Of a stretch of 35,832 nucleotides of DNA, positions 1-28,354 are shown piece by piece (the stretch's first letter is position 1; every line of letters begins with the position of its first letter). A program made the position numbers and the translations under genes. Origin of the DNA: Escherichia phage vB_EcoM_APEC. Under the pieces are notes generated by a model. The model was not told where the DNA came from. It did not search any database and was given only the letters and a program-made list of their open reading frames with translations. The DNA is taken from sequence record MT664721. One strand, written 5' to 3'.

Positions 1-1
1 A

Positions 2-448: not shown

Positions 449-450
449 AC

Positions 451-906: not shown

Positions 907-909
907 GTT

Positions 910-8089: not shown

Positions 8090-8097
8090 AGGTGAAT

Positions 8098-8271: not shown

Positions 8272-8280
8272 GGAGGCAGA

Positions 8281-10346: not shown

Positions 10347-10357
10347 GGGGATTTTTA

Positions 10358-12867: not shown

Positions 12868-13206
12868 ATGGAAGATTTTGCAAAAGCTGTAGCGGATTAC
12901 TTCCGAAGCAATATAGGCTTGCTATCTGGCGTAGTGATAGGAATGCTTATTTATATTCTGACTGCGAAAAAAAAGACATGGCGAGAGAGGATTGTTAATG
13001 CTTCAGGTGGTGGCCTGCTGGCAATAGTTTTTGCTCCACACATTGCTACATTCTTTGACAAGCCGAATTACGCTGTGCCTATTGCGGTTCTTATTGTGTA
13101 TTTCAACGAGTGGTTACCAGAACTTATACAAACCTTTGCACCGAAATACATTAAAGTCCTCATTAAGCGTTTTACCGGAGTTGACCTAGATGACTCAAAT
13201 AAGTAA
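12868..13206 (+). CDS. holin-like membrane protein, 112 aa
   Basis: Two to three predicted hydrophobic helices; directly upstream of the endolysin. Confidence 0.5.
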   Translation: MEDFAKAVADYFRSNIGLLSGVVIGMLIYILTAKKKTWRERIVNASGGGLLAIVFAPHIATFFDKPNYAVPIAVLIVYFNEWLPELIQTFAPKYIKVLIKRFTGVDLDDSNK

Positions 13207-13474
13207 CTTCACATGGGGAGTGTTGCTAGAGAATCTAGCACTCTTTATTGTATTCCTGTGTATTGCAAGCGTGGTTATACAGCACATGCGAAAGCAAATT
13301 GTATTGGGCGTATTCTGGCATATATCTTTTGTTATTGGTCTAGTGATTACTTTTACACTAATACTTGACCCATATCCTAGAATATTTGATGAAGCACAAA
13401 CAGCATATAAGTTATTTATTGCTGTAATTGCCGTTGGACTCTGCAATAAAATAAGCAAAGAAGGTGGGTTCTAA
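13190..13474 (+). CDS. membrane protein, 94 aa (second holin / antiholin candidate)
   Basis: Multiple hydrophobic segments; overlaps previous gene; precedes the endolysin. Confidence 0.45.
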   Translation: MTQISNFTWGVLLENLALFIVFLCIASVVIQHMRKQIVLGVFWHISFVIGLVITFTLILDPYPRIFDEAQTAYKLFIAVIAVGLCNKISKEGGF

Positions 13475-13475
13475 T

Positions 13476-14084
13476 ATGATCATGACAGAGAAAGGCTTTG
13501 CTGTTTTAAGGTCACATTTTGGTAGCTTGAAGCAATCGCAAGTTGACGGAATTAATACCATTGTTGAGCAGTTCAATGCTCAGGGTGTGACCAACTACAA
13601 CCATGCAGCCTACATGCTCGCTACAACTTGGCATGAAACTGCAAAAACCATGCAGCCAATTGAAGAATATGGAAAGGGTAAAGGCCGTCCTTATGGAACA
13701 TGGTACAAGAACAGCAAGGGTCTGCTTTACAGCTTTATAAACGGATTTAAAAAGGTTGCCTATCTGTTCAATGACCATCCCCATCTCTATTATGGTCGTG
13801 GCTACGTGCAACTTACATGGTTTGAAAACTACCAGAGAGCATCCAAGAAACTCGGCGTAGACTTTATAAATAATCCAGGGCTTGCACTAGACCCTAAACC
13901 TGCTGCTGATATTATGATTGTCGGAATGCGTGAAGGTTGGTTTACCGGAAAGAAACTGGATGATTACATTTCAGGAAATAAAAAAGATTACGTGGGCGCA
14001 AGGAAGATTATCAACGGACTAGATAAAGCTAAACTCATTGCTGATTACTCTGCAATATTTGAAAAGGCTTTGCGCCAGCCATAA
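13476..14084 (+). CDS. endolysin, glycoside hydrolase family 19 (chitinase-like) type
   Basis: Motifs HETAK...YYGRGYVQLTW resemble GH19 catalytic region; ATG at 13476 with AAGGTGGG upstream (track starts at GTG 13464). Confidence 0.75.
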   Translation: MIMTEKGFAVLRSHFGSLKQSQVDGINTIVEQFNAQGVTNYNHAAYMLATTWHETAKTMQPIEEYGKGKGRPYGTWYKNSKGLLYSFINGFKKVAYLFNDHPHLYYGRGYVQLTWFENYQRASKKLGVDFINNPGLALDPKPAADIMIVGMREGWFTGKKLDDYISGNKKDYVGARKIINGLDKAKLIADYSAIFEKALRQP

Positions 14085-14087
14085 GAA

Positions 14088-14107
14088 AAGCCCCATTATA
14101 GGGGCTT
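14088..14107 (-). terminator. intrinsic terminator between convergent transcription units (U-tract on minus strand)
   Basis: Hairpin AAGCCCC-ATTATA-GGGGCTT; the T-run follows only in the minus orientation; overlaps the last codons of the minus-strand gene 14096..14293. Confidence 0.55.
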
Positions 14108-14293
14108 GATATACATAGACTGGGTTATTTTGCCCATACATGATCTTGACCATTCTCCAAAACAATAGCCATAGAGAACACCATCAACATATTTGTAATA
14201 TAAGAACCCTCTTTCATTATCTATTCCAGCTCTCTCTGGTCTGTAATGCGTAGCGCCGTTAGGTGCATTTTCCTTTATTTCTTGCTCTGTCAT
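14096..14293 (-). CDS. hypothetical protein, 65 aa (paralog of 20887..21078)
   Basis: Shares MT.EEI...AP.GATHY N-terminus and IKPL C-terminus with the plus-strand 63 aa protein; terminal gene of the minus-strand operon. Confidence 0.5.
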   Translation of the reverse strand: MTEQEIKENAPNGATHYRPERAGIDNERGFLYYKYVDGVLYGYCFGEWSRSCMGKITQSMYIKPL

Positions 14294-14463
14294 TTTACTT
14301 CCTCACTTAACTTCTGTATCCCAAACTCATCATGAAACATCTGATACGATAATACCGCCTTCCATTGCTGACAGCTATCCAGCCATATATACCACTCATT
14401 CTCTGCAACTTTCATCCAATAATCCAGTCCATCCCAATGAGTAGCGCCTAGAGGTTTAGTCAT
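14290..14463 (-). CDS. hypothetical protein, 57 aa
   Basis: ATG (rc of 14461-14463) with GAGGTGA upstream, 2 nt after the stop of the upstream gene; the track's longer version overlaps the neighbour out of frame. Confidence 0.4.
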   Translation of the reverse strand: MTKPLGATHWDGLDYWMKVAENEWYIWLDSCQQWKAVLSYQMFHDEFGIQKLSEEVK

Positions 14464-14839
14464 GCTCACCTCGCAGGGCTTTATGTTCATGATCACCAAA
14501 GTATTCTTTATTTTCGTATCTATTGTTATTGCAGTTAAAACAATGCAATAGACTAAAACCTTCACGGTCACTAACAATTCCCTGCCAAGGTTCACCACAT
14601 GAACAAGTTCCGTGAATCATGGCTGACATAGATTGGCTCTTCCAGGCTTTAAGCTGAGCATTTAAATCATTAATTACTTTCTGCTGCTCTTGGAATGCGT
14701 ACCATGCGCCGTTTATCCAGCAAACAAGCTTTTGAAAGTTGATTAAGTCCGAGTGATACAAATTGTCATCACCAAAATAAATATGCTGGCTAAGACTATT
14801 TGCAATCTCAGGCAACTTCTCAAACTGTTCTCTCATCAC
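14456..14839 (-). CDS. hypothetical Cys-rich protein, 127 aa
   Basis: CSCGEPW...HCFNCN pattern suggests metal binding; tightly coupled in the minus-strand operon. Confidence 0.5.
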   Translation of the reverse strand: MMREQFEKLPEIANSLSQHIYFGDDNLYHSDLINFQKLVCWINGAWYAFQEQQKVINDLNAQLKAWKSQSMSAMIHGTCSCGEPWQGIVSDREGFSLLHCFNCNNNRYENKEYFGDHEHKALRGEHD

Positions 14840-15718: not shown

Positions 15719-16330
15719 TCAATACATTTCCAAAATTTTGTCTTTAATTGCTTGGGTCTGTTCATTGTAGAGCTTGACCAAGGCTTCTATGTTTTCAATC
15801 TTATCTCTTACATCATTCGCATAAACACGTTTAACAAATAACGGAAGATTCGGGCAGTAGCTTACAAAGTCCATCCATTGAAGTTCTGCACAGGAAATAC
15901 CGCCTATCAGTTGATCTATATGCTCCTTCGGTATTTCACCTGAACGCAAGATAGCAATCTGAGTCTTTGGTGTTTTAACCTTAATCTCTATGCCTCCAAT
16001 AGGGATTTTATCAGGAATGATCAATCCATCTGGTGAATAACCAAATCCCTTATTCTTCACAAAAGAAACCATAGAAACCGTATAGCCTGTCTTTTCCTCA
16101 TACCGCTGACGTGCTTTAGATTCTAGCTGCTGACCTCTTTTAGTCCATTCATTACCCTGAAAAACCTCTGCCGGTTCATGATTAATTAACTCATAAGCCA
16201 GACCATTAATATAGCTCTGAGCGCCTACTCCATTTGCCCGAATGGTTGAAATCTCCGAACAGGTGATTAGACCTAAGCGCAAGTCCAACCACTCAGGAGA
16301 ACCCTGTTCTATTCCGGTGATGATTTGCAT
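15719..16330 (-). CDS. YqaJ-like (lambda-exonuclease-type) recombination exonuclease
   Basis: N-terminal QGSPEWLDLRLGLITCSE resembles the YqaJ family; PD-(D/E)xK-like SPDG...EIK; paired with the ERF gene. Confidence 0.75.
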   Translation of the reverse strand: MQIITGIEQGSPEWLDLRLGLITCSEISTIRANGVGAQSYINGLAYELINHEPAEVFQGNEWTKRGQQLESKARQRYEEKTGYTVSMVSFVKNKGFGYSPDGLIIPDKIPIGGIEIKVKTPKTQIAILRSGEIPKEHIDQLIGGISCAELQWMDFVSYCPNLPLFVKRVYANDVRDKIENIEALVKLYNEQTQAIKDKILEMY

Positions 16331-17028
16331 TATTCACCCTTTTCCAGCTTGGCTAATTTGGTATTTAAAACCCCGACCCAATAATCGAAATCATTTTTAG
16401 GTATCTCGTGCAACTCACAGCCAATATGAGCCTCCATTAATCCTCTTGCTTCTGCACCAAACTGAGATAACTTTTTCTCTATAACAGAAACTTGCTGCGG
16501 TGAAATCGTAATAGCCACCTGCCCATCGTTATCTTCAGCAATAACCAGACCTAGCAATGCTCGCATAGTGTAACGCTGTGCATAACTAATTGCTGAGCCA
16601 TAAGACTGTATATCTGACTTGCTGCCTCCCTTATCCGGCGCAACCTCCATTGAAGACTCTTCGCTGTGCCCACCAACGTGCGAGCAGATGCACGTAACGC
16701 GAGATTTACCATCAGCACATGCTTGGGTAGCCCATCGAATAAACAAGCCATGCTTACGCAATACAGGGTCAATACGGCTTTGTATATACTCAAGCTTTGC
16801 ATACTTAGAGTTATGACCACGACTAGACTTTTCCAAAACTGGTTTTTCCATTTGAAATGCCAGCATTGCCTGATCAAATTGCTGCTTGGCCTGATTGCGC
16901 TGTACACGTTCATGAAGCTCAAGCATCTTTTCAAGTTTCCCCACGTCTGCATCTGGACTGGTTGCAACACGTTCAATAATGCTAATCATCGGGTCAACAT
17001 TATTATTTCTTTCGATTAACTCACTCAT
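16330..17028 (-). CDS. ERF-family single-strand annealing protein
   Basis: SKYAKLEYIQSRIDPVLRKHGL and SYAQRYTMRALLGL resemble conserved ERF regions (P22 Erf type); first gene of the minus-strand operon. Confidence 0.8.
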   Translation of the reverse strand: MSELIERNNNVDPMISIIERVATSPDADVGKLEKMLELHERVQRNQAKQQFDQAMLAFQMEKPVLEKSSRGHNSKYAKLEYIQSRIDPVLRKHGLFIRWATQACADGKSRVTCICSHVGGHSEESSMEVAPDKGGSKSDIQSYGSAISYAQRYTMRALLGLVIAEDNDGQVAITISPQQVSVIEKKLSQFGAEARGLMEAHIGCELHEIPKNDFDYWVGVLNTKLAKLEKGE

Positions 17029-17101: not shown

Positions 17102-17260
17102 ATGGACAAACAAAACCGTACAAGATTGCAAGTCTCAATTCACAATGAAAAGGAAAAAGACCTTCTCGATAAACTTAAAAAACGAGAGAATTTTTCTGGT
17201 GAAACTAAAGAACTATGGCTGGCTAAGTTAAAAAGTGAGGAGAGTAAAAATGGAAATTGA
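17102..17260 (+). CDS. small ribbon-helix-helix-like protein, 52 aa (tentative)
   Basis: ATG at 17102 with AGAGGA upstream; RTRLQVSIHNEKEKDLLDKLKK resembles an Arc/CopG-type RHH; below track cutoff; overlaps next gene start by 11 nt. Confidence 0.3.
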   Translation: MDKQNRTRLQVSIHNEKEKDLLDKLKKRENFSGETKELWLAKLKSEESKNGN

Positions 17261-17609
17261 TATTCAAATTGACTTAAGACGTGGCGGTTTTGAAGCAATG
17301 CACCCAAATGCAAGGCTATTTAACTTTGATTCTGAAAAAATGGTTTATTTTGGCGAAGGATCGGAAGGCATTAATAGTCAATGGACTACTTGGTGCGCGT
17401 GCATTGGAATGTTGCACTTAGAGACTGGGGAAGCCAAAGCCCAAGCAGTGCCGGAATGCAAATGGTCTAAAAATCAAGGTGGGTTTTACGACACATCATG
17501 CATCAATGCTTTTGTGTTCCCAGAGTCTGATGACACTCCAGAATATCATGAATTTACGCATTGCCCTTTTTGTGGTGGAAAGTTAAGCGAACCTCAGGAG
17601 GCCAAATGA
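17250..17609 (+). CDS. hypothetical protein with C-terminal zinc-ribbon-like motif, 119 aa
   Basis: ATG at 17250 with GAGGAG upstream; C-terminal HCPFCGGKL. Confidence 0.5.
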   Translation: MEIDIQIDLRRGGFEAMHPNARLFNFDSEKMVYFGEGSEGINSQWTTWCACIGMLHLETGEAKAQAVPECKWSKNQGGFYDTSCINAFVFPESDDTPEYHEFTHCPFCGGKLSEPQEAK

Positions 17610-17968
17610 ACAAATTAAAAATAGCACATGACTATTTCATGAAACATGGAAGTCCTGAAAATTTCAGTACAGACATTGCAGAGGCATGGGAATATGCAGA
17701 CCGGATGATTGAGCAAGAACAGCGTCGAGAAGACAAAACCAGACCAGAGGTTTTACGCGACAAAGAATGGCAGCCGGACTGGTCGCAAGCTCCGGTTTGG
17801 GCGTATTACTGGGCTAGAGATAGCAACGGTTTGTGCCATTGGTATAGTGGGGAGGTATGTATAAATGAAAATGAATTCTACCCAAGTGAATTTGGACAAT
17901 TATGGGATGATGCACCACTTTTCGGCTACTCAGGCGACTGGCGCGAGTCACTAAGAAAGCGGCCATGA
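17606..17968 (+). CDS. hypothetical protein, 120 aa (shares a Trp-rich domain with 24706..24918)
   Basis: ATG at 17606 overlapping the previous stop, AGGAGG upstream; C-terminal pattern DWS.AP...W.A.DS.G...GDWRESL..RP. Confidence 0.5.
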   Translation: MNKLKIAHDYFMKHGSPENFSTDIAEAWEYADRMIEQEQRREDKTRPEVLRDKEWQPDWSQAPVWAYYWARDSNGLCHWYSGEVCINENEFYPSEFGQLWDDAPLFGYSGDWRESLRKRP

Positions 17969-18351
17969 ATTTATTTGATGCTGCGGAATATGCAGAAAGT
18001 TTAAGCAATTGCAAGAAACGTCCAGTCGGGTGCAGTCTTGCAATAAATGGTGAAGTGGTTGCCATTGGATTTAATCATGCAGACAGTAAATGTAAATGCA
18101 AAATGCATGAAGAAAATTCAAAGGTTGAACATGCTGAAATATGTTGTCTGAAGCATTACGAGTTTCTAAAACAGGACTGTTCAGAATTGGCAGTGACTTA
18201 CATCTGTTGCCTGAATTGCTCTAAAGAAATCGTAAAGCGTGGCATTAAGAAGGTGTACTACCGCGACCATAGACCCGAAACAGACAAACAGTTAGGCATT
18301 AACTATTTAAAATCACACAATGTAGAGGTATCGAACCAATGGAACAGTTAA
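17965..18351 (+). CDS. cytidine/deoxycytidylate deaminase-like zinc-binding protein
   Basis: HAE motif followed by CCLNC (PC..C-like) at the spacing typical of CMP/dCMP deaminases. Confidence 0.55.
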   Translation: MNLFDAAEYAESLSNCKKRPVGCSLAINGEVVAIGFNHADSKCKCKMHEENSKVEHAEICCLKHYEFLKQDCSELAVTYICCLNCSKEIVKRGIKKVYYRDHRPETDKQLGINYLKSHNVEVSNQWNS

Positions 18352-18866
18352 TTAAACAGATTGAACAATGGGCAGAAGATCGGAATATTATTAATGGGAG
18401 CAAACCAATTGACCAAGCTATGAAACTGTTTTCAGAATTTGGCGAACTCGCAGACAATGTAGGGAAGGGTCGTGATTGCCGCGATGATATTGGCGATGTT
18501 TTTGTTGTGCTGACTATTATGGCGAAGCAATTAAATCTTAACATCAAAGGTATCGAAATTGTTAAATCTGAATCTAAGCCAATATTTAACTTAAAAAATA
18601 TGGTTGTTGACCTAGGGATGTCTTTAAATTATTTTTCTCGTTCAGAAAACCAATTAAACTTAAAAAATGCGGTTAATGAGTTACAAACAATTTCTGCAAT
18701 TTATGGTTATGATTTAAAAGAATGCGTCCAAATCGCCTACAACGACATTAAGGACAGAAAAGGTATTTTATGGAATGGGGTATTTGTAAAAGAAAGTGAT
18801 TTGAGTTATAATGCTTGTGTTGAAGCTTATAGAGAATCGCTAAGTGAGAAAAACACAGAAAATTAA
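18339..18866 (+). CDS. MazG-like nucleoside triphosphate pyrophosphohydrolase
   Basis: FSEFGELADNV...DDIGDVFVVL matches the MazG E..GE...D..GD pattern. Confidence 0.55.
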   Translation: MEQLIKQIEQWAEDRNIINGSKPIDQAMKLFSEFGELADNVGKGRDCRDDIGDVFVVLTIMAKQLNLNIKGIEIVKSESKPIFNLKNMVVDLGMSLNYFSRSENQLNLKNAVNELQTISAIYGYDLKECVQIAYNDIKDRKGILWNGVFVKESDLSYNACVEAYRESLSEKNTEN

Positions 18867-19497
18867 TATTATTGGTAGTAGGTTTGGCAACCTCGTAGTG
18901 CTAAGCGAGGTTGCTGAAAGAAACAAGAATGGTCATATTTTATATACTTGTGAGTGTGATTGTGGAAACAAAAAAAACATACTAGGGTCTTCATTAAGGC
19001 AGAAGCTTACGACTTCTTGCGGCTGTGTTCATAAAAAAAAGATAACAAAACACGGAATGGATGGAACTAAGGTTTATAGAACTTGGGTTGGAATGAGGAA
19101 TAGATGCAACAACCCAAATAATAGAAGATTTCACGATTATGGTGGCAGAGGTATTTCTGTTTGCAATGAGTGGAATAACTCTTTTGATGCGTTTTATTCG
19201 GATATGGGAGAACCAAAGCCAAATCAATCTATAGAACGGATAGACAACTCAAAACCATATTGCAAAGAAAATTGTGTATGGGCAACTAACAAACAACAGT
19301 GTAATAACAGGAGAAGCTCAGTGGTTGTTTATTTTGATGGTATTGAGATGACAGTAGAGGAATACTCAAAAAAAGTAGGCTTGTCAGTATCAGGGGCAAG
19401 AAAAAAAGTGATTCGAGAATTTACTAGATTTGGGAACGTATTCATCAAAGAATCTGACCCAGCCTATGCGGATGCTTGCAAGGAGCTGGGCAAATGA
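18844..19497 (+). CDS. HNH-family-like nuclease motif protein, 217 aa
   Basis: Cys-rich; YRTWVGMRNRCNNP...YGGRGISVCNEW...IERIDNSKPY..NCVWAT..QQCNNRR recalls phage HNH-like proteins; family assignment uncertain, start codon uncertain. Confidence 0.4.
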   Translation: MRKTQKINIIGSRFGNLVVLSEVAERNKNGHILYTCECDCGNKKNILGSSLRQKLTTSCGCVHKKKITKHGMDGTKVYRTWVGMRNRCNNPNNRRFHDYGGRGISVCNEWNNSFDAFYSDMGEPKPNQSIERIDNSKPYCKENCVWATNKQQCNNRRSSVVVYFDGIEMTVEEYSKKVGLSVSGARKKVIREFTRFGNVFIKESDPAYADACKELGK

Positions 19498-19754
19498 ACG
19501 AATCACAAAAAGCACTGGTGAATAACTTTGCTCAGTTCTTGGGTATATTGAATCTACCAGCCAATGACATATCTCCAAAAATAGATGCAGAAGGTAAAAT
19601 CTATTTTGAAGATCAGGAAACAATGAAAGCCTTCTCTGCATTCCGATATGCCTATGCAACAGGTTTTACTTCTGGTCGCAATGTCATGTATAAAAAACTG
19701 ACAGAACTGTCGGGAAAATACATGGCTGACCTTATGGCCGCAGCACCGAAATAG
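19494..19754 (+). CDS. hypothetical protein, 86 aa
   Basis: ATG overlapping the previous stop (ATGA) with AGGAG upstream. Confidence 0.45.
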   Translation: MNESQKALVNNFAQFLGILNLPANDISPKIDAEGKIYFEDQETMKAFSAFRYAYATGFTSGRNVMYKKLTELSGKYMADLMAAAPK

Positions 19755-19762
19755 GAGCTTAT

Positions 19763-19942
19763 ATGAAAAGCAAAATGACAGCAGCCATGTGGCTTGCTAA
19801 GATTCAATCTGAATGTAAGCACTTTTGGGTTCACGATAGTATGGGCTATCAAAAGAAGTGCAGCAGATGTGGAAAAGTGGAGCAACTTAAATTAACTACG
19901 CAATATTCAAAAACTTTTAAAGAAAGCTGGAATATTTATTAA
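19763..19942 (+). CDS. small Cys/His-rich protein, 59 aa
   Basis: ATG at 19763 with AGGAG upstream; ECKH...CSRCG pattern; below track cutoff; followed by a terminator. Confidence 0.35.
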   Translation: MKSKMTAAMWLAKIQSECKHFWVHDSMGYQKKCSRCGKVEQLKLTTQYSKTFKESWNIY

Positions 19943-19982
19943 AGTTTAGTTATATTGCAATAACTCACTTAAACCCTTTCCA

Positions 19983-20013
19983 AGCCCGGTGCCCTCACAC
20001 TGGGTTCTTTTTT
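19983..20013 (+). terminator. rho-independent terminator
   Basis: Imperfect 9 bp stem (AGCCCGGTG / CACTGGGTT with G-U pairs) followed by CTTTTTTG. Confidence 0.5.
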
Positions 20014-20015
20014 GC

Positions 20016-20043
20016 TTGCAAATAATATTAAAGCAATTATAAT
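20016..20043 (+). promoter_or_regulatory. sigma70-like promoter (TTGCAA, 16 nt, TATAAT)
   Basis: -35 TTGCAA at 20016-20021 and consensus -10 TATAAT at 20038-20043; GAGG at 20064-20067 and ATG at 20073 downstream. Confidence 0.5.
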
Positions 20044-20072
20044 AATAAAGCATACTAACAAGTGAGGTTAAA

Positions 20073-20258
20073 ATGTCTGCAAAAGAAAAAGCAAAACTGG
20101 CTTATAAAAAGCACTGTGCTGCGAAACTAAAAATTATCAATATCCGGTTTAACGTAGTTGATCATGAAGACGAAGCGCAAGCCTTTGAACATATCAAGTC
20201 GCAACCAAACCAGAAAAAATACATTCTTAAATTAGTAAAAGAGGACATGATTAAATGA
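20073..20258 (+). CDS. hypothetical basic protein, 61 aa
   Basis: First ORF downstream of the promoter at 20016-20043; GAGG RBS. Confidence 0.45.
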   Translation: MSAKEKAKLAYKKHCAAKLKIINIRFNVVDHEDEAQAFEHIKSQPNQKKYILKLVKEDMIK

Positions 20259-20890
20259 CTTTTCAAATCGGACAGGAAGTGGAAATTATAGGATTAGCAC
20301 CATTTGATGATAGATTCAATGTAGCTATAGGTGATAGAGGTATTATTATTAATATCAACACCAATTCTCATATAAAGATATCCAATCCAAAATTTACGGG
20401 AAGTGCTGCCGGAGAAGGTTTCTTTTATGCCCACAAGTCAAACGTAAGAATTGTTGAATCAAAACCTTTATACGAAGACTCAGGCAGAAACAAACTTAGA
20501 CTCTGGCTTAAGACTGTATGTAAAGAGTATGACTTTACCCTTGAGCAGCTATCATTAAATCTAGGATTCAACGAAAGCTATCTAAGCAATGTAGGCAGCA
20601 AGTCACGTTTTGAAAAACGCGGTGATATTAATTCAGAAGAATATAGAAAACTGGTTAATAATTTCCTTGTGCATGATTACAAAGAATGTAGACATACCAT
20701 GGCTCAGCTTGTTGAACAGATTGATAGCCTTGACGATGATCTGAGAGAGTGCAGGGGAGAAAACTACAAGTGCAATAGATACCTAGAACAAGCAAACAGG
20801 AATACCGAGTACTGGATGAGAAAGTTACCTAAAACCAGATTTCAGGCGTTTAAACTATTTATTAAAATGATGTTTGGAGGCCAGCCATGA
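20255..20890 (+). CDS. hypothetical protein with putative helix-turn-helix segment, 211 aa
   Basis: Central segment FTLEQLSLNLGFNESYLSNV resembles an XRE-type HTH; overlapping-stop coupling. Confidence 0.45.
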   Translation: MTFQIGQEVEIIGLAPFDDRFNVAIGDRGIIININTNSHIKISNPKFTGSAAGEGFFYAHKSNVRIVESKPLYEDSGRNKLRLWLKTVCKEYDFTLEQLSLNLGFNESYLSNVGSKSRFEKRGDINSEEYRKLVNNFLVHDYKECRHTMAQLVEQIDSLDDDLRECRGENYKCNRYLEQANRNTEYWMRKLPKTRFQAFKLFIKMMFGGQP

Positions 20891-21078
20891 CACCTGAAGA
20901 AATCAGAAAGAAAGCGCCAGAGGGAGCGACGCATTATATGAAGTCAATCATATTTTTGGATAGCGTTGACCTAATAACATATTTCAAGTGCGAAAATGGT
21001 AAATTCTTTGAATACTTCGCTCATCATTTCGCTAGGTACGAAACTGGTGTTCACCCAACCTTGATTAAGCCCCTCTAG
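20887..21078 (+). CDS. hypothetical protein, 63 aa (paralog of 14096..14293)
   Basis: Shared N- and C-terminal motifs with the minus-strand 65 aa protein; stop codon lies in the loop of the terminator hairpin. Confidence 0.5.
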   Translation: MTPEEIRKKAPEGATHYMKSIIFLDSVDLITYFKCENGKFFEYFAHHFARYETGVHPTLIKPL

Positions 21079-21090
21079 GGGCTTTTTATT
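21067..21090 (+). terminator. rho-independent terminator
   Basis: Hairpin AAGCCCC-TCTA-GGGGCTT followed by TTTTTATTTG. Confidence 0.65.
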
Positions 21091-21206
21091 TGCCCTTTAT
21101 ATTAGTTTTTCTTATTAATTTTAATTTAATTAATAAAAATTATTTATTTTACTTGTCACAATAAGATTAATAAAATAACCATATTGTTACTACCATCGAG
21201 GATAAG

Positions 21207-21437
21207 ATGATTTTACAAAAGCCTTTATTTTGGCACTGGTGCAAACAAGAAACTGGAAATATAGCATATTTGGCTAGAGAGTTAGGCGTAAGCCGAACAT
21301 TTGTTTCATTTCTTGTTAGTGGTAAAAAGCCCATACCTCTTGAACATATACCGAAGATTAAACAAGTAACTGGTCTAAAAGCCAAAGAATTGCGACCTGA
21401 TGTTTATGAAATTTTTAAGGATGATTTAGATGACTGA
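21207..21437 (+). CDS. Cro/YdaS-like helix-turn-helix DNA-binding protein
   Basis: GNIAYLARELGVSRTFVSFLVSGKKPIP resembles Cro/YdaS-type HTH regulators; first gene after the AT-rich intergenic region, upstream of the replication genes. Confidence 0.55.
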   Translation: MILQKPLFWHWCKQETGNIAYLARELGVSRTFVSFLVSGKKPIPLEHIPKIKQVTGLKAKELRPDVYEIFKDDLDD

Positions 21438-21642
21438 AATGCCAAAAGATGCCTTGTTCTTTATGAACTGGTTTGAAAAAGAATATCCAGAATTTGTAAA
21501 TCAGTATGGTCAGGTCAAAGGATTTTATGATCAATCCTCTGATGAGTTCCAGATTGAGGAAATACAGGATGCATATATCGAAAGAAAGAAAGGCAATGAG
21601 CCGTTACCCATGTATTTTGGCGACAGTGGTCAGTTTAGATAA
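21430..21642 (+). CDS. hypothetical protein, 70 aa
   Basis: Coupled ORF between the HTH gene and the replication initiator. Confidence 0.45.
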   Translation: MTEMPKDALFFMNWFEKEYPEFVNQYGQVKGFYDQSSDEFQIEEIQDAYIERKKGNEPLPMYFGDSGQFR

Positions 21643-21651
21643 GGAAAGGTT

Positions 21652-22389
21652 ATGAGTAATTGGATTCCAAATTCTTTTCAGCTTCCAAATTCATTGGTTG
21701 ATGAGAAGTACCTAGTAGAGCTAAAAGGTTCTCCATTAGCTATGTACATCTTCATTGTGAGGAAAACTAGAGGCTGGCAGAAAGAATGCGACAATATCAG
21801 CTTGTCTCAATTTGAGGAGTTTACCGGATATGGTAAAGATGCAGTTTTAACAGGAGTGAATAAGCTTGTTGAGCTTGGTTTAGTTAAGCGCGTTTCTTAT
21901 GAAAACAAGACTTCTTTTTACGAGTTAAATGATCAGCCATTACCTCCTGAAAAGATGCTGTCGGAAAATCCGCTAGCGGAAAATCCGACAAGTGCTGTCG
22001 GAAAATCCGACAAGTTGCTGTCGGAAAATCCGACACACAATAACAAAGAAAACAACTTTAAAAAAACAAATATAAATAACCATCCTAAAAAATTTGAGTT
22101 CAAGAAGGAATTACTAAAACTTGGGGCTAGTGAAGACTTAGTAAATGATTGGTTGATTGTTAGAGGGAATAAGAAGGCATCAAACACCCAAACTGCTTTC
22201 AATGGGTTTTTAAAACAAGTGAATGATTCTGGACTTGATGCTGAAACCGTTCTGAAAATCTGTGTTGATAAATCTTGGAGTGGCTTTAAGAAATCATGGT
22301 TATCGAATATTGATCTATCTGAATACCAGACAGAACCCAAGGAACCGAAGCAAGACAGTACATACGAAATTGAACTGGTGGAATATTAA
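21652..22389 (+). CDS. replication initiator, lambda O-like N-terminal domain
   Basis: LAMYIFIVRKTRGWQKECDNISLSQFEEFTG parallels the lambda O N-terminal domain (RKTYGW...SQ); iterons and an AT-rich tract lie inside the gene. Confidence 0.8.
   Translation: MSNWIPNSFQLPNSLVDEKYLVELKGSPLAMYIFIVRKTRGWQKECDNISLSQFEEFTGYGKDAVLTGVNKLVELGLVKRVSYENKTSFYELNDQPLPPEKMLSENPLAENPTSAVGKSDKLLSENPTHNNKENNFKKTNINNHPKKFEFKKELLKLGASEDLVNDWLIVRGNKKASNTQTAFNGFLKQVNDSGLDAETVLKICVDKSWSGFKKSWLSNIDLSEYQTEPKEPKQDSTYEIELVEY
21959..22035. repeat. four iterons (17 bp palindromic unit TGTCGGAAAATCCGACA), putative origin-binding sites
   Basis: Copies at about 21959, 21975, 21996 and 22019 (two perfect, two variant), followed by an AT-rich tract (22036-22100), all inside the O-like gene. 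Confidence 0.7.
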
Positions 22390-23693
22390 TGACTACATCA
22401 CTACATGCCATAAACTTTGAACAATACGTTCTATGTTTTCTAATGGACAATGAAAACGGATTAAGCTTTTTGAAAGTTAAACCCAAGGTTGAGCATTTCT
22501 ATGCTGACCGACACAAGGAGATATTCAAGGTAATTGAATCACTGGCATTTCAGGGAAAGCCTTATGATTATGAAATCGTCCTTGATCAACTAAAAACACT
22601 AGGTCTTGATTACAAGGTCGGGGGTGAGGAATATTTCAAGGAAATGATGAGTAACTTTGCAGCTCCTAGTGCTGTGAACGGATTTCATGAAAAACTGATA
22701 AAGCTGGAAGAATGCAGAAGGGTTGAGGAGGTAGGAAACAAGATTTTAGAACTATCACGAAACACTATGATTGATGATATGCCTAGAATCGCACAGGAGC
22801 TTGCTAGCGGCTTAGAAACTGTTTTTGTGAGTGACAGTACCATCAGCCTAACAGAAAGCGCTGCTGAAGCTCTGAGCGTCATTCACGATAAGTTGACTCA
22901 CAAGAAAGAAAACAGGGGAACAGCTTATGGCGTGAACACTGGTTTACGTGATCTTGATGCGACTCTAGGAGACATTGAGCCATCACATTTGTGTGTTATT
23001 GCTGCTGCCCCGGGTGGGGGTAAGACTACACTGGCACAAATGATTGCTTTGAATGCAGTGAAAAAGAATAATGCCCCTACAATTTTCTTTTCATGCGAAA
23101 TGGCACACTACGAGATAACCAACCGGATTATTAGTGCTGAGTGCAGAATCCCAATAGAGCGGATCCAGAACGGTACAATGGACAGTGATGATTACGAGCG
23201 CTGGGTTCAGACTACTGCAACGGTTTTCCCAAACTATAAGCTGGATATTGTAGACAAGGCAGCAATAAGCATTGGTGAAATCAGATCTGAAATACAGAGA
23301 ACAATTAAGCGACATGGGAAAGTTGGCTGTGTGATTGTTGATTACCTTCAGCTTGTTGAAGATAAAAATGCAAAGGATAACTTTGAAAAAATATCAAATG
23401 TTTCTACTGGTTTAAAACGAATAGCCAAAGACTTCAAGGTTCCGGTTATTGCTCTGTCGCAGCTAACGAAAGAGGCTCAAGGCAGAAGAATTACCATGTC
23501 GGATTTACGTGGTTCAGGCCAGATTTCACAAGATGCAGACAAGATCATTCTTTTGCATCCAGATGAAAAAACTCTAGGTCTGATTGTTGCGAATGTGGCA
23601 AAGAATCGGCAAGGACCTAAAGGTGAATCTCGGTTAATTTCCGCTTTTGATATATGTCAGTTTGGAAACATCAGACGGCAAGATGACTTTTAA
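22389..23693 (+). CDS. DnaB-family replicative DNA helicase
   Basis: DnaB-like N-terminal domain; Walker A AAPGGGKTTLAQ; RecA-like C-terminal region (DYLQLV, SQL). Confidence 0.85.
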   Translation: MTTSLHAINFEQYVLCFLMDNENGLSFLKVKPKVEHFYADRHKEIFKVIESLAFQGKPYDYEIVLDQLKTLGLDYKVGGEEYFKEMMSNFAAPSAVNGFHEKLIKLEECRRVEEVGNKILELSRNTMIDDMPRIAQELASGLETVFVSDSTISLTESAAEALSVIHDKLTHKKENRGTAYGVNTGLRDLDATLGDIEPSHLCVIAAAPGGGKTTLAQMIALNAVKKNNAPTIFFSCEMAHYEITNRIISAECRIPIERIQNGTMDSDDYERWVQTTATVFPNYKLDIVDKAAISIGEIRSEIQRTIKRHGKVGCVIVDYLQLVEDKNAKDNFEKISNVSTGLKRIAKDFKVPVIALSQLTKEAQGRRITMSDLRGSGQISQDADKIILLHPDEKTLGLIVANVAKNRQGPKGESRLISAFDICQFGNIRRQDDF

Positions 23694-23822
23694 TTTTAAA
23701 AACCAATGAGTAATGAGAGGAATATAAAATGTCAATTAAAGAAATCTGTCAGCACGAATATCAATATTCTTGGATTTATGATTCTTGGATGTGCATTCAT
23801 TGCGATAAATTAAAAAACAGTA

Positions 23823-23851
23823 TTGACTGAATTAATATTAAAGCATATAGT
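23823..23851 (+). promoter_or_regulatory. sigma70-like promoter (TTGACT, 17 nt, TATAGT)
   Basis: -35 TTGACT at 23823-23828 and -10 TATAGT at 23846-23851; GTGAGGA RBS and ATG at 23878 downstream. Confidence 0.5.
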
Positions 23852-23877
23852 TTGTATAAATTAGTGAGGACTAGATT

Positions 23878-24066
23878 ATGTTTAAAAAGTTACAAATTCA
23901 ATTAAATGACGCTATCCGTAAACAAGACGAGCTGGCTGTTAAACTGGCTGAAGCTCAAGACGATTTCCTTATTGCCAAGCTTGACGAATTGTATAAATCG
24001 GCTTCTGAATGGGTAGATTTATTGCAACGTCAAGTTAATCGCGAACAAAGAAGGGCCGCTAAATAA
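23878..24066 (+). CDS. hypothetical coiled-coil-like protein, 62 aa
   Basis: First ORF after the promoter; GTGAGGA RBS. Confidence 0.45.
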   Translation: MFKKLQIQLNDAIRKQDELAVKLAEAQDDFLIAKLDELYKSASEWVDLLQRQVNREQRRAAK

Positions 24067-24109
24067 GCGGCTTCACTTACTAACAAGCAGGAGTTGGAAA
24101 CTATATAAA

Positions 24110-24280
24110 ATGAAAACCCAGCAACAGATTGAAGAAATGAAAAAGAACATTCAGGAAAGAATTGATGAGTGTCATCGTATGGCTATGATGCAGCCAAGCA
24201 GAAGTGAAGCTGATAAATGGTTTGATTCAAAGCGTCAATTTATGGCCCAATACAACATTTTACTGGAGGTTTTGAAATGA
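24110..24280 (+). CDS. hypothetical protein, 56 aa
   Basis: ATG at 24110 with GGAG upstream; below track cutoff; stop overlaps the next start (ATGA). Confidence 0.4.
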   Translation: MKTQQQIEEMKKNIQERIDECHRMAMMQPSRSEADKWFDSKRQFMAQYNILLEVLK

Positions 24281-24450
24281 TTACATGGGTAACAGTGTGG
24301 GTTTTAACGGTATTTCCTTTTGATGGAGGCTCTTCAAGATACTCATATCAATTGCAATACTCCAGTCAGAAAATATGCGAAAATCAGAGGGAGAATAGGA
24401 AAGGTATCTCCCGTTGTGACTTCCAACAAATACCAGTGGTGATGAAATGA
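24277..24450 (+). CDS. small protein with N-terminal hydrophobic segment, 57 aa
   Basis: ATG overlapping the previous stop; MITWVTVWVLTVFPF hydrophobic; stop overlaps the next start at 24447. Confidence 0.4.
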   Translation: MITWVTVWVLTVFPFDGGSSRYSYQLQYSSQKICENQRENRKGISRCDFQQIPVVMK

Positions 24451-24713
24451 GCAGATTACAAGTAGGTGGGTTGGCTTTACACTTAAAAAGTGGTTTAACT
24501 TGCAAGCTCCTAGCATTCTATGGTGATGGTTATACTAGAAGCGGTTACTTAAAAAAAGAAAATTGGAGATGTGATTTTGGAGAAAAAGTTCAATGTGAAA
24601 ATACGGGTGTATGGGGTCAGGTTATGTTTGAGGAAGCTAAATACCTCTTACCCCTAGGCGACAAACAAACCCAAGATGAACTAGCAAAAGAGAAGGAATT
24701 AGAGGATGCCTAA
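24447..24713 (+). CDS. hypothetical protein, 88 aa
   Basis: Coupled ORF (overlapping stops and starts). Confidence 0.5.
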   Translation: MSRLQVGGLALHLKSGLTCKLLAFYGDGYTRSGYLKKENWRCDFGEKVQCENTGVWGQVMFEEAKYLLPLGDKQTQDELAKEKELEDA

Positions 24714-24918
24714 ATATGATTGGTCAAATGTGCCAGATGAAGTTAAGTGGATTGCTACCGACTCAGATGGATGGATTTCAATGCACACAATAAAACCTGA
24801 GCCTGTCTTAAATATTAATTGGATAGACAGCTCAGAAGAAGGGTATTTAGTTTTAATCAAAGGCAGCCCATTCAATGGTGATTGGAAAGAAAGCCTAGAG
24901 GAGCGACCAGGTGTTTAA
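24706..24918 (+). CDS. hypothetical protein, 70 aa (shares a Trp-rich domain with 17606..17968)
   Basis: Pattern DWSNVP...W.ATDSDG...GDWKESLEERP parallels the C-terminal half of the 17606 gene product. Confidence 0.5.
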   Translation: MPKYDWSNVPDEVKWIATDSDGWISMHTIKPEPVLNINWIDSSEEGYLVLIKGSPFNGDWKESLEERPGV

Positions 24919-25760: not shown

Positions 25761-26726
25761 ATGATTAGTATGAATAGCAGTTTAATTAACCATGCATTGA
25801 GTGATCAGTTAGCCAGAGAAGTTGAGGAATTTCTGGCGCGTGGTGGAAAAGTAAAGTCTGAAGGTATTCAGCGCCGTGATATTGAGGAATTAACGCCGGA
25901 CTTTAAGCGCGACTTTGTAATATCAGGAAGAAAACCTGAAATGGTCAAGGCTGAGAAAAAGGAAGAAAAAGAACCTAAACCAAAGAAAGAGAAGGTTAAG
26001 GTGATTATACCAAAGCCAGAACCTAAACCGAAACGCGAACCTAAGCCCAAGAAGCAGGTAGTCAAAGTAGTTAAGGCCAAACCATTGCCGAAACCAAAGC
26101 CAGAACCTAAACCAAAGAAAGAGAAAAAAGAAAAGGTATTTACTAAAGAGACCTTAAGGGTTAGAGCTAACCAGAAATCGCGTGAAGATGCTTTGAAAAA
26201 GGGTATGGATACTTTTGAAGGTGAGTGTAAAAAGCATGGCATGACTGTATTTAAGATTCACAGTGATGCATTTAGATGCCGTGAATGTGCAGAGCTTGAC
26301 AAGCAGCGCAGAACTGAAGCCAAGAGAGCTAAACGTGATCAGCGAGAAGTTAGAAATGAGGATAGAAAGAAAGCGGCTATTGCAAATGGTTATACTAAAT
26401 TTGATGCTGAATGCCTGCATCATGGCTTAACCGAGCATCATCTTACGAGGAATAGCCGTAATCACACAATTATGGTGTGCACCTTATGCAAGAAAGAAAC
26501 TAACAAGCGAACTGTAGAGAGAAGGAAGAAAGTCCAGTACAGGGATTATGAGCGTAACGCTTTTATTAGAAATCAACTGGCCAATAGAAGAATAAGCTGT
26601 GTTGCGCTGGCAGATGCGATTAATGCTAGTCCATCAACCATGAATAAGATTAAACGTGGTGAACAGCTTTGCAGCGATAGACTATGGCAAGCCATTAATC
26701 AGTTCTTTGAAAAACTTGATAAATAA
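25761..26726 (+). CDS. DNA-binding protein with Lys/Pro-rich repeats, duplicated Cys-containing motif and C-terminal helix-turn-helix, 321 aa
   Basis: GAGGTGA RBS; EPKPK repeat tract (about residues 67-122); two copies of a (F/K)(E/D)..EC..HG.T....CxxC motif; C-terminal RRISCVALADAINASPSTMNKIKRGEQ resembles an HTH. Confidence 0.55.
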   Translation: MISMNSSLINHALSDQLAREVEEFLARGGKVKSEGIQRRDIEELTPDFKRDFVISGRKPEMVKAEKKEEKEPKPKKEKVKVIIPKPEPKPKREPKPKKQVVKVVKAKPLPKPKPEPKPKKEKKEKVFTKETLRVRANQKSREDALKKGMDTFEGECKKHGMTVFKIHSDAFRCRECAELDKQRRTEAKRAKRDQREVRNEDRKKAAIANGYTKFDAECLHHGLTEHHLTRNSRNHTIMVCTLCKKETNKRTVERRKKVQYRDYERNAFIRNQLANRRISCVALADAINASPSTMNKIKRGEQLCSDRLWQAINQFFEKLDK

Positions 26727-27147: not shown

Positions 27148-27780
27148 ATGGAAGATTTTAAAATTTTTGTAAAAGATGAAGCGGCAAGCAAGGAAGCCCA
27201 GGAGTTGTTTTTTGGGGTTGGTTTTAGGGGTGGTAAATATAAAGGTTATGATGGGAATAAGCAAAAAACAGAATATAGGTTGTGGGCAAATATGCTTAAG
27301 AGGTGTTACTCGAGATCATCTCAATTAGCTAGACCATCCTATATTGGTTGTGAGGTCTCTGATAACTTTAAAGAATACGATTACTTTTACGAGTGGTGTC
27401 AAAATCAAACCGGATTCAATGAAAAAGGATTTCAACTTGATAAGGACCTATTAAAAAAAGGGAATAGGATTTACTCTGAGGATTTATGCTTGTTTTTGCC
27501 AAGTGAAATCAATACCGCACTAATACTCAGAAAATCAAAAAGAGGTAAATATCCAATAGGTGTTACTTACTCAGAAAGAGATAGATTATTTGCATCAACA
27601 TTAACTATGTATGGGAAAAACACTCATGTTGGATATTTTAAAGATGAGATGTCGGCATTTTTGAAATACAAGGAGGTTAAAGAGGCCTATCTAAAAGAAC
27701 TCGCCAATCTATACAAGGAACAAATTAACCCTCTTGCGTATCTTGCTTTGTTGAACTACGAGGTATCCATTAATGACTAA
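27148..27780 (+). CDS. hypothetical protein with HNH-like motif, 210 aa
   Basis: ATG at 27148 with AAGGTGG upstream (the track's longer version begins in a hydrophobic out-of-context stretch); YRLWANMLKRC motif similar to the 18844 gene product. Confidence 0.45.
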   Translation: MEDFKIFVKDEAASKEAQELFFGVGFRGGKYKGYDGNKQKTEYRLWANMLKRCYSRSSQLARPSYIGCEVSDNFKEYDYFYEWCQNQTGFNEKGFQLDKDLLKKGNRIYSEDLCLFLPSEINTALILRKSKRGKYPIGVTYSERDRLFASTLTMYGKNTHVGYFKDEMSAFLKYKEVKEAYLKELANLYKEQINPLAYLALLNYEVSIND

Positions 27781-28354
27781 TCTATCAGAAATCGACATAG
27801 TTGTTTTGAAGAGGAATGAAACGATGAAAATGAAAGAATATCTAAACGAGAAATATGAACTGATTAATGCGCCTGAGTCAGAAGCTAAAGAACCACATGC
27901 TAAGGGGTGGATTGAAGTACCAGAGGGGGCAGAGATATTAACTGTTGGTATTGATCAGCGTGTATTCTGGAAAGGTGATTTGAGCTGGAATATTGATGGT
28001 TACGAAACTAAAGAGTGGAGATCAACTGATAGTTTCCCGATTTACATGAAGAATTACGAGAAAACGGTTAAGGTATTATGGCAACGCAACGCACCTACCC
28101 TGACAGAAGAACTGCCGTTTATTGATGATGAGCCACATGGACACTACAAGAAAGATGTTAGCAATTTAAATAGCATTGATGTTTATCGTGTATTAAAACT
28201 TTTTGATGTTAAAGACCCTGCATTGCAACACGCAGTAAAGAAAATATTATGTGCTGGTGATCGTGGCACAAAAGATAAGGTTCAGGATATTCAAGAGGCT
28301 ATCGCTTCACTTAATCGCTCCCTAGAGATGATTAAAGAGGATGGCTGTATGTGA
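27773..28354 (+). CDS. hypothetical protein, 193 aa
   Basis: Coupled ORF (ATGA overlap). Confidence 0.5.
   Translation: MTNLSEIDIVVLKRNETMKMKEYLNEKYELINAPESEAKEPHAKGWIEVPEGAEILTVGIDQRVFWKGDLSWNIDGYETKEWRSTDSFPIYMKNYEKTVKVLWQRNAPTLTEELPFIDDEPHGHYKKDVSNLNSIDVYRVLKLFDVKDPALQHAVKKILCAGDRGTKDKVQDIQEAIASLNRSLEMIKEDGCM

What the first reader, a model, noticed from the sequence alone, without database searches (positions are those of the whole stretch)
17606..24918. A Trp-rich domain occurs twice in separate early proteins
The C-terminal half of the 17606..17968 product and the whole 24706..24918 product share the pattern DWS..P...W.A.DS.G...GDW(R/K)ESL..RP. This suggests duplication of a small module within the genome.
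Basis: seen in the sequence. Interest (0 to 1): 0.4.

Follow-up and report, generated by a model that had tools for sequence, protein, structure and literature searches.

The report
Orphan Trp-rich phage domain, two copies
Two small genes of this phage genome really do share a ~65-residue tryptophan-rich domain, but it is an old, widespread, mobile phage domain of unknown function with no Pfam entry and no solved fold, not a fresh duplication in this genome.

Summary
Residues 54-120 of the 17606-17968 product and residues 4-68 of the 24706-24918 product are homologous: BLASTP E=3e-7, 37% identity, and 0 of 5000 shuffles reach the alignment score. There are only these two copies in the window.

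The reading as a duplication within this genome is only partly supported.
- Each copy has hundreds of closer relatives in other phages.
- The two genes share no DNA similarity.
- Both types (a long form with a helical N-terminus, and a stand-alone short form) sit together in many Acinetobacter Obolenskvirus genomes, at different positions.

The module is a portable, almost always C-terminal, acidic, Trp-rich beta domain. Its signature is DW[SD]x[AV]P...W...P...W...WxxSLxxRP.
- A profile search finds 2293 protein clusters.
- It occurs as tandem arrays of up to 9 copies and is fused to a dCMP deaminase and to DUF3310.
- It has no Pfam, NCBIfam or PADLOC match, and its PHROG families are all of unknown function.
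- The "DUF551" label that UniRef gives one relative fails both tests run here.

Function is unknown. My best inference, at low confidence, is a binding or adaptor module linked to phage SaV-like/nucleotide-metabolism proteins.

The parts
17606..17968 (+). Gene A, the 'long type' (120 aa): helical N-terminal hairpin, flexible linker, then the C-terminal Trp-rich domain. AGGAGG lies 5 nt upstream. Its start overlaps the stop of 17235-17609 (ATGA), and its stop overlaps the start of the dCMP deaminase gene (ATGA).
   Evidence: phrog_14495 matches over the whole length, E=2.7e-20
17606..17731 (+). N-terminal helical hairpin of A (aa 1-42; predicted helices 3-14 and 17-42). Conserved motifs are AH.Y..K and AW.YADAMQAEADKRE. 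It is present in 88 of the 140 representative proteins examined that carry the domain.
17732..17764 (+). Linker of A (aa 43-53; pLDDT below 50 at 43-47 and 49-51). It carries the conserved 'RPEVL', which is also the linker between repeats in tandem-domain proteins such as P0062.
17765..17965 (+). Trp-rich domain, copy A (aa 54-120): EWQPDWSQAP...SGDWRESLRKRP. It ends at the C-terminus of the protein.
24706..24918 (+). Gene B, the 'short type' (70 aa): a stand-alone domain. It overlaps both neighbouring genes by 8 nt. It is 100% identical to a hypothetical protein of Escherichia phage vB_EcoM_APEC.
24715..24909 (+). Trp-rich domain, copy B (aa 4-68): YDWSNVP...NGDWKESLEERP. The AF2 model has pLDDT 91.3, with five beta strands and a short helix.
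17965..18351 (+). Context: a dCMP deaminase gene whose start overlaps the stop of gene A. The same arrangement is seen in relatives L022 and L024. In another phage the domain is fused to this enzyme (P0210: 7 repeats plus a deaminase).
18339..18866 (+). Context: a MazG-like pyrophosphatase gene, the next gene in the same tightly packed operon.
27773..28354 (+). Inferred partner family (phrog_13223/2452). Its relatives lie immediately upstream of the long-type gene in 17 of 33 other loci, and pieces of this family are fused to the domain in P0129, P0249 and P0168. In this genome it lies 10 kb from A.

Best explanation
The two genes carry anciently diverged copies of one portable protein domain that is found mainly in phages. 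It is about 65 residues long, acidic and Trp-rich, and is predicted to form a five-stranded beta domain closed by a short helix and the terminal SLxxRP segment. Its signature is DW[SD]x[AV]P-x2-A-x-[WY][WF]...W-x4-P-x6-W-(variable)-W-x2-SL-x2-RP. Gene B is the bare domain. Gene A tethers the same domain through a flexible linker to a helical hairpin.

Shown here: the homology; that the domain is independent and mobile; that it sits at the C-terminus; that it forms tandem arrays; that no Pfam or PDB relative was found; and that the two types are old paralogues.

Inferred, with low confidence: the domain is a binding or adaptor module. Its strongly conserved N- and C-terminal segments would form the functional surface, and its hypervariable middle would tolerate change. 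It would dock whatever is attached to it (a probable oligomerising hairpin in A, enzymes or SaV-like domains elsewhere, more copies of itself in arrays) onto a common partner in early phage nucleotide/DNA metabolism or host take-over. The best candidate partner is the SaV-like (DUF3310/DUF6378-type) protein family, represented in this genome by 27773-28354.
For: Homology.

A family that is large and mainly in phage or phage-like contexts:
- 2293 representative clusters at E<=1e-3 and 295 at E<=1e-10.
- Phage records from Acinetobacter and Burkholderia.
- BFVD structural matches only to uncharacterised phage proteins from Iodobacter, Pseudomonas, Burkholderia and Agrobacterium phages.
- Only 1 confirmed locus, a small MAG contig, in a pattern-seeded scan for the long type in 185,579 species genomes. 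Some short-type contigs look like prophages by their identifiers.

Portability:
- The extension after the last domain has median length 0.
- There are 1 to 9 domains per protein.
- 52 of 140 representatives lack A's helical hairpin and carry a variety of other N-termini.

Structure: pLDDT is 91.3 for B and 84.8 for A, and the same beta domain appears in both.

Link to nucleotide-metabolism and SaV-like proteins:
- P0210 is 7 repeats plus a dCMP deaminase.
- Gene A overlaps a dCMP deaminase gene in the window and in two relatives.
- P0249 is DUF3310 plus the domain.
- P0129 is the N-domain of the neighbour family plus 2 domains, and P0168 is a DUF6378-like start plus the domain.
- The gene immediately upstream belongs to that family in 17 of 33 loci, which span 29-41% identity to A.

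Acidic character argues against direct nucleic-acid binding: median pI 4.85, median net charge -3, 9% Trp.

Conserved ends and a variable middle.
Against: - No member of the family has been characterised, and no binding partner has been shown.
- Gene neighbourhood in compact phage early regions is weak evidence. Many of the 33 loci are related phages, so part of the synteny may simply be inherited.
- In this genome gene A is not next to the SaV-like gene.
- The short type (B) has no recurrent neighbour.
- Only 4 of about 360 fetched proteins carry an informative fusion.
- The PHROG label 'nucleotide kinase' for DUF3310 families is an annotation, not a test.
- I could not inspect model coordinates, so 'conserved segments form a surface' is unverified. 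The conserved Trp residues may simply be the hydrophobic core.
Confidence: 0.55

Rival explanations
1. Recent duplication of a module inside this genome: one gene gave rise to the other within this phage lineage.
For: The two copies are homologous and lie in the same genome.
Against: Each copy has many closer relatives in other phages; the mutual ranks are 355/396 and 119/386. There is no DNA similarity. The two subfamilies have distinct signatures (EWQPDWSQAP..SLRKRP versus YDWSNVP..SLEERP) and both occur together in many other genomes.
Confidence: 0.04
2. The domain is a diverged DUF551 (PF04448) domain, as the UniRef name of one family member (P0108) says.
For: UniRef calls P0108 a 'DUF551 domain-containing protein'. 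The two domains are loosely alike: small, Trp-containing, portable phage domains that end in a W...P motif. The short type of phage XC1 even has 'THW'.
Against: The Pfam DUF551 model does not match A, B, P0108, the XC1 short type or a repeat of P0126. As a positive control, the genuine DUF551 protein of phage XC1 matches it at 7.8e-11. The two domains hit disjoint sets of PHROGs. hhalign of the domain profile against a 7-sequence DUF551 profile gives probability 0.3%.
Confidence: 0.05
3. The domain binds a small ligand (a nucleotide, or a nucleotide-derived immune signal), and the tandem arrays act as high-capacity sponges or sensors. The fusions to nucleotide enzymes would then reflect ligand delivery or regulation rather than protein docking.
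For: The domain has many conserved aromatic residues. It forms arrays of up to 9 copies. It is fused or adjacent to dCMP deaminase, MazG and DUF3310 'nucleotide kinase' families. It sits in early or accessory genome regions, where anti-defence genes are typically found.
Against: It has no sequence or fold similarity to any solved structure, so none to any solved sponge, and no PADLOC match for the domain. The conserved Trp residues may be core rather than pocket residues. There is no direct evidence.
Confidence: 0.15
4. It is an acidic decoy or DNA mimic that inhibits a host DNA-binding defence or enzyme, in the style of Ocr or ArdA.
For: The domain is consistently acidic, with median pI 4.85. 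It is repeated in long arrays. It lies among early and accessory genes.
Against: No similarity to known mimics was found in the PDB searches. The charge is modest, with a median net charge of -3 per domain. The fusions to enzymes are not explained.
Confidence: 0.08
5. The similarity is a chance match of two Trp-rich, compositionally similar short ORFs, or B is not a real gene.
For: Both are short, and B is only 70 codons.
Against: 0 of 5000 composition-preserving shuffles reach the score. Both genes have many conserved homologues in phages and metagenomes. Gene B is found identical on 9 independent contigs. The AF2 models are confident.
Confidence: 0.01

Closest known systems
PHROG families phrog_14495 (whole long type), phrog_1972, phrog_33797, phrog_21375 and phrog_15048
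   Same: These are the same sequences. A matches phrog_14495 end to end (E=2.7e-20). B matches phrog_1972 (7.9e-10) and internal regions of longer families.
   Different: All are labelled 'unknown function'. PHROGs cluster whole proteins, so the shared domain, its boundaries, its tandem arrays and its fusions are not described there. A full-text search for these four PHROG identifiers found no paper.
DUF551 (Pfam PF04448 / IPR007539)
   Same: Both are small (~65 aa), Trp-containing portable domains of phage early and accessory proteins. DUF551 is also usually C-terminal and is fused to varied partners, such as Ea22 variant V2, YfdS and MazZ, according to PMC10834534. One relative of A is named DUF551 in UniRef.
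   Different: The curated model fails, the PHROG hits are disjoint, and hhalign gives probability 0.3%. The signatures differ: W[IV]sv.d.LP...vTHWMplPepP for DUF551 against DWS.AP...W..SL..RP here.
Lambda/Stx phage Ea22-type modular early proteins
   Same: The architecture is alike: a short N-terminus and a helical (coiled-coil) region, followed by an exchangeable C-terminal domain that is acidic and thought to bind an unknown partner (PMC10834534). Gene A has a helical hairpin, a linker and an acidic portable C-terminal domain.
   Different: There is no sequence relationship. The lambda Ea22 C-terminal domain is a mixed alpha-beta dimer, whereas the fold predicted here is nearly all beta. The comparison is an analogy of design only.
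SaV-like / DUF3310 (PF11753) and DUF6378 early phage proteins
   Same: They are linked by gene order (immediately upstream in 17 of 33 loci) and by fusions (P0249, P0129, P0168). SaV is an early, toxic lactococcal phage protein that triggers AbiV, as summarised in PMC8306868.
   Different: They are not homologous to the domain, and A and B have no DUF3310 or DUF6378 match. The relation is a proposed partnership, not membership.

Membership tests
DUF551 (PF04448) | Match to the curated Pfam model at or above the gathering score (22 bits) | tested here: not met
   There is no hit at E<=1 for A or B, at E<=0.1 for P0108, or at E<=10 for the XC1 short type and a P0126 repeat. As a positive control, the XC1 DUF551 protein scores 43.1 bits, E=7.8e-11.
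DUF551 (PF04448) | Profile-profile similarity to DUF551 sequences | tested here: not met
   hhalign of A2 (32 sequences) against A4 (7 DUF551 sequences) gives probability 0.3% with 1 aligned column. Caveat: the DUF551 profile is thin.
DUF551 (PF04448) | Signature motifs W[IV]..d.LP at the start and THWMplPepP at the end | tested here: not met
   A and B instead have DWS..P and GDW[RK]ESL..RP.
DUF551 (PF04448) | Same three-dimensional fold | not tested
No DUF551-labelled entry appeared in the top 50 BFVD matches, although most of those entries carry no name.
PHROG phrog_14495 / phrog_1972 | Significant match to the family profile | tested here: met
   A matches phrog_14495 at 2.7e-20 over residues 1-120. 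B matches phrog_1972 at 7.9e-10 and phrog_14495 at 3.1e-6.
Trp-rich 'DWS...SLxxRP' domain, as defined in this analysis | Signature residues D5, W6, A9/P10, W26, P31, W38, W59, S62, L63, R66, P67 (profile numbering) | tested here: met
   Both copies carry D, W, P10, P31, W59, S, L, R and P. A has W26. B has W38, where A has F.
Trp-rich 'DWS...SLxxRP' domain, as defined in this analysis | The domain ends at the protein C-terminus, or at a repeat boundary | tested here: met
   A ends at ...RKRP*. B ends at ...ERPGV*. The median C-terminal extension is 0 in 265 proteins.
Trp-rich 'DWS...SLxxRP' domain, as defined in this analysis | Predicted five-stranded beta domain with a short C-terminal helix | tested here: met
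   The same element order appears in both models, at pLDDT 91.3 and 84.8 (above 90 within the domain). These are predictions only.
Any solved-structure family | Significant sequence or fold similarity to a PDB entry | tested here: not met
Known anti-phage defence proteins (PADLOC) | Match to a PADLOC model | tested here: not met
   There is no hit for A, B, P0124 or P0126. In P0210 only the deaminase part matches.

The most novel reading that the evidence does not exclude
The domain is a previously undescribed protein fold, found mainly in phages, with a specific and conserved molecular target. It would be either a dedicated docking module that assembles phage nucleotide-metabolism and SaV-like take-over proteins, or a ligand or immune-signal sponge whose capacity scales with the tandem copy number (up to 9). 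Gene A and gene B would be two differently packaged versions used by the same phage.
Probability: 0.2. Interest if true: 0.6.

Novelty: new member of a known kind. Interest (0 to 1): 0.33.

Why it matters
On its own this is a modest result: one more orphan phage domain. It still has some value.
- It defines the boundaries and signature of a domain family of more than 2000 clusters that Pfam lacks and that PHROGs split into several whole-protein families.
- It shows that the 'DUF551' label on one relative fails the tests run here.
- It gives a confident model with no PDB counterpart, which makes the domain a reasonable target for structure determination.
- The fusions and conserved gene order give a concrete, testable lead: interaction with SaV-like/DUF3310 proteins and with dCMP deaminase. 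That lead bears on a set of early genes shared by many Obolenskvirus phages of Acinetobacter, including isolates characterised as therapeutic candidates.

Tried and rejected
- Third copy in the window: an HMM of the two copies against the six-frame ORFs, plus motif regexes, found none.
- Family libraries: Pfam, NCBIfam and PADLOC gave nothing for the domain.
- DUF551 link: rejected by the Pfam model with a positive control, by disjoint PHROG hits, and by hhalign.
- Relation to the other paralogous pair in the window (14096-14293 and 20887-21078): hhalign probability 0.4%.
- Word-indexed search with a 65-sequence domain profile: it returned only unannotated proteins, with no new fused Pfam domains.
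- Literature: searches for the PHROG identifiers and for Trp-rich phage repeats, plus one term search inside an Obolenskvirus genomics paper, found no description of the family.
- Short type: the neighbour analysis found no recurrent partner.
Full report
**What the window is.** The 35,832-base window matches the stated genome length of Escherichia phage vB_EcoM_APEC (MT664721), given in PMC8229158. The 70-aa product of 24706-24918 is 100% identical to a hypothetical protein of that phage. The window is therefore very probably that complete genome. All DNA and protein relatives are Acinetobacter phages, mostly of the genus Obolenskvirus.

Gene order; where Pfam or PHROG results did not settle a function, the assignment is my reading of the translations:
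- Large presumed tail genes at 1-12787.
- Holins and endolysin at 12868-14084.
- A leftward recombination operon: exonuclease at 15719-16330 and an ERF-type recombinase at 16330-17028.
- A rightward operon starting at 17084. It holds gene A (17606-17968), a dCMP deaminase (17965-18351) and a MazG-like pyrophosphatase (18339-18866).
- Replication genes: O-like protein at 21652 and DnaB at 22389.
- A run of small genes that includes gene B (24706-24918).
- Presumed morphogenesis genes from about 29571.

**Check of the observation.**
- BLASTP aligns A 58-120 with B 5-68 at 37% identity, E=3e-7.
- The local alignment score of 81 is about 10 standard deviations above composition-preserving shuffles (mean 28.8, sd 5.2, maximum 65). 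None of 5000 shuffles reaches it, so Trp richness does not explain the match.
- An HMM of the two copies finds no third copy in any frame of the window.
- The C-terminal motif GDW[RK]ESLxxRP is exact in both.

**What the module is.**
- Gene A has many full-length relatives: 264 at E<=1e-3 in the word-indexed search. They share a helical N-terminal region, a variable linker and a highly conserved C-terminal block, EWQPDWSQAP...APSFGYxGxWxxSLRKRP.
- A profile of the C-terminal block plus the short proteins (alignment A2) was scored against 1.84 billion cluster representatives. It finds 2293 proteins at E<=1e-3 and 295 at E<=1e-10.
- In 265 fetched proteins the domain count is 1 (235 proteins), 2 (11), 3 (10), 4 (4), 5 (3), 6 (1) and 9 (1).
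- The extension after the last domain has median length 0. The domain is therefore almost always C-terminal and ends in RP.
- Of 140 representatives, 88 have A's helical N-domain. The rest have many unrelated N-termini or none.
- P0062 and P0074 carry two copies. P0126 (1003 aa) carries nine.
- The domain is acidic (median pI 4.85, median net charge -3) and about 9% Trp.
- Column statistics over 296 instances give these conserved positions: D5, W6 (100%), A9, P10 (99%), W26, P31, W38, W59, S62, L63, R66 and P67. Positions 32-49 are poorly conserved.
- The short type shows the same picture. YDWSNVPxEVNWIATD and WxxSLExRP are nearly constant, and the middle is hypervariable in sequence and length.

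**Structure.**
- AlphaFold2 with alignment A2 models B at mean pLDDT 91.3. It predicts five beta strands, a short helix at the W..SL motif and a final short strand.
- A is modelled at pLDDT 84.8 as a helical hairpin (3-14 and 17-42), a low-confidence linker (43-51) and the same beta domain at pLDDT above 90.
- Against BFVD, the nine matches at E<=1e-3 that carry a name are all uncharacterised phage proteins, from Iodobacter PhiPLPE, Pseudomonas Itty13 and Burkholderia Bcep781 gp28. Agrobacterium phage 7-7-1 follows just below that threshold. Weaker matches lie in T4-like phages.
- No known fold is therefore recognised. The AFDB50 library could not be searched.

**Comparison with known families.**
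- Pfam, NCBIfam and PADLOC have no model for the domain.
- PHROGs contain it in several whole-protein families (14495, 1972, 33797, 21375, 15048, 23941, 20561), all of unknown function.
- UniRef names one relative (P0108) a 'DUF551 domain-containing protein'. I tested that label in four ways.
  - The Pfam DUF551 model does not match A, B, P0108, the phage XC1 short-type protein or a P0126 repeat.
  - The genuine DUF551 protein of phage XC1 (WFD61275.1) matches the model at 7.8e-11.
  - That protein hits a disjoint set of PHROGs.
  - hhalign between the domain profile and a 7-sequence DUF551 profile gives probability 0.3%.
- The label is not supported by these tests. A fold comparison remains undone.
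- DUF551 is still the nearest described analogue in kind: a small, portable, Trp-containing domain of phage early proteins (PMC10834534).

**Duplication or old paralogy.**
- Among about 390 domain instances, B ranks 355th for A, and A ranks 119th for B.
- A's nearest relatives are long-type proteins of other phages (56-49% identity in the domain). B's nearest are short-type proteins (78%, 53% and 44%).
- The two genes share no detectable DNA similarity. Identity is 44% over the aligned codons.
- The long type occurs in 69 phage records and the short type in 58. Both occur in the same genomes, at locations that differ from those in this window.
  - In XC1 the short type follows the ERF and exonuclease genes, and the long type lies after the helicase, between a DUF3310 'nucleotide kinase' and an endonuclease.
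  - One IMG/VR contig carries two short-type genes.
- The long type is essentially absent from a pattern-seeded scan of 185,579 species-representative bacterial genomes. The scan gave one confirmed locus, on a 6.7-kb MAG contig.
It is wrong if read as a recent local event.

**Clues to function.** Two kinds of association were found.

1. Fusions.
   - P0210 has seven repeats followed by a dCMP/cytidine deaminase domain (E=1.5e-23). It is encoded on a phage-like contig with NinG, a metallophosphatase and an amidase.
   - P0249 is DUF3310 plus the domain.
   - P0129 has the N-terminal region of the family of window 27773-28354 and the XC1 'nucleotide kinase' (E about 1e-4), followed by two domains.
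   - P0168 has a DUF6378-like start followed by the domain.
2. Gene order.
   - In 17 of 33 loci that encode a long-type protein (29-41% identical to A), the gene immediately upstream belongs to the family of window 27773-28354. It often overlaps the long-type gene by 4 or 8 nt.
   - That upstream family has a shared N-domain and a SaV-like DUF3310, DUF6378-type or related C-domain.
   - In the window's own lineage (the window, L022 and L024) gene A is instead followed by a dCMP deaminase gene whose start overlaps A's stop, and then by MazG.
   - PHROGs label the DUF3310 families 'nucleotide kinase'.
   - The one characterised DUF3310 protein I found described is lactococcal SaV, an early, toxic protein that triggers AbiV (PMC8306868).
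   - The short type has no recurrent neighbour.

**Most likely mechanism (inference).** The domain has these properties:
- It is acidic, so it is unlikely to bind nucleic acid directly.
- It sits at C-termini.
- It tolerates a hypervariable middle but has near-invariant terminal segments.
- It is attached to many different N-terminal modules.
- It forms arrays.
- It is tied by fusion and gene order to SaV-like proteins and dCMP deaminase.

This fits best with a binding or adaptor module. In gene A a probable oligomerising hairpin would present two or more copies on flexible linkers. Gene B would be the free module. I hold this at low confidence. A ligand-binding sponge role and an acidic decoy role are not excluded. 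What is firmly shown is only the existence, extent, distribution and architecture of the domain, and the age of the two copies.

**Verdict.** The object is an uncharacterised, widespread phage domain that PHROGs already cluster but that has not been described as a domain, is not in Pfam, and has no recognisable solved fold. It is ordinary in kind, since phages are full of such orphan domains. The structural orphan status, the tandem arrays and the enzyme fusions give it moderate interest.

Noticed in passing
window 14096-14293 (-) and 20887-21078 (+); possibly also the C-terminal part of 14290-14598 (-): A second pair of small paralogous proteins (65 and 63 aa) shares 'EIxKxAPxGATHY...IKPL': BLASTP E=2.4e-8, 34% identity, both in phrog_6698 (unknown function). 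One lies at the end of the leftward operon and the other in the rightward operon. hhalign shows no relation to the Trp-rich domain (probability 0.4%).
   Followed up: partly
whole window: The window has the same length (35,832 bp) as the published genome of Escherichia phage vB_EcoM_APEC (MT664721), reported to infect E. coli APEC O78 and Klebsiella, and one encoded protein is 100% identical to a protein of that phage. Every detectable relative at DNA and protein level is an Acinetobacter phage (Obolenskvirus and relatives), and identical genes turn up in several metagenomes. The host assignment looks odd against the gene content.
   Followed up: partly
window 27773-28354 (+), and loci L018-L021, L025, L029, L030, L033, L034 and others: This is a modular early-protein family with a shared N-domain ('MKEYL...W.E.PEGA...LWQR') and interchangeable SaV-like C-domains (DUF3310, DUF6378-type or a third type). 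PHROGs annotate it variously as nucleotide kinase, ATPase or phosphofructokinase, so those annotations look unreliable.
   Followed up: partly
window 17235-17609 (+): The gene upstream of A encodes a 124-aa protein that ends in a CPFCGG zinc-ribbon-like motif. It has only faint PHROG matches, including a Lar-like restriction alleviation family at E=0.23. It is 57% identical to the protein at the same position in relative L024.
   Followed up: no
P0167 (75 aa) compared with P0010, outside the window: P0167 is a stand-alone protein with short-type ends (YDWS...SLEERP), but its core closely resembles the long-type domain of P0010. This suggests recombination between the short-type and long-type genes.
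   Followed up: no
window 25761-26726 (+): This 321-aa protein has a long Lys/Pro/Glu-rich low-complexity stretch (KPKPEPKPK...). The precomputed annotation of the identical gene on a metagenome contig carries a weak SutA-RBD Pfam hit.
   Followed up: no
window 17732-17764 (linker of gene A): The conserved 'K(T)RPEVL' just before the domain in long-type proteins is the same as the 'SLRKRP-EVL' junction between tandem domains in P0062. This hints that the long type may derive from a two-domain ancestor, or that RP-EVL is a structural linker motif.
   Followed up: no
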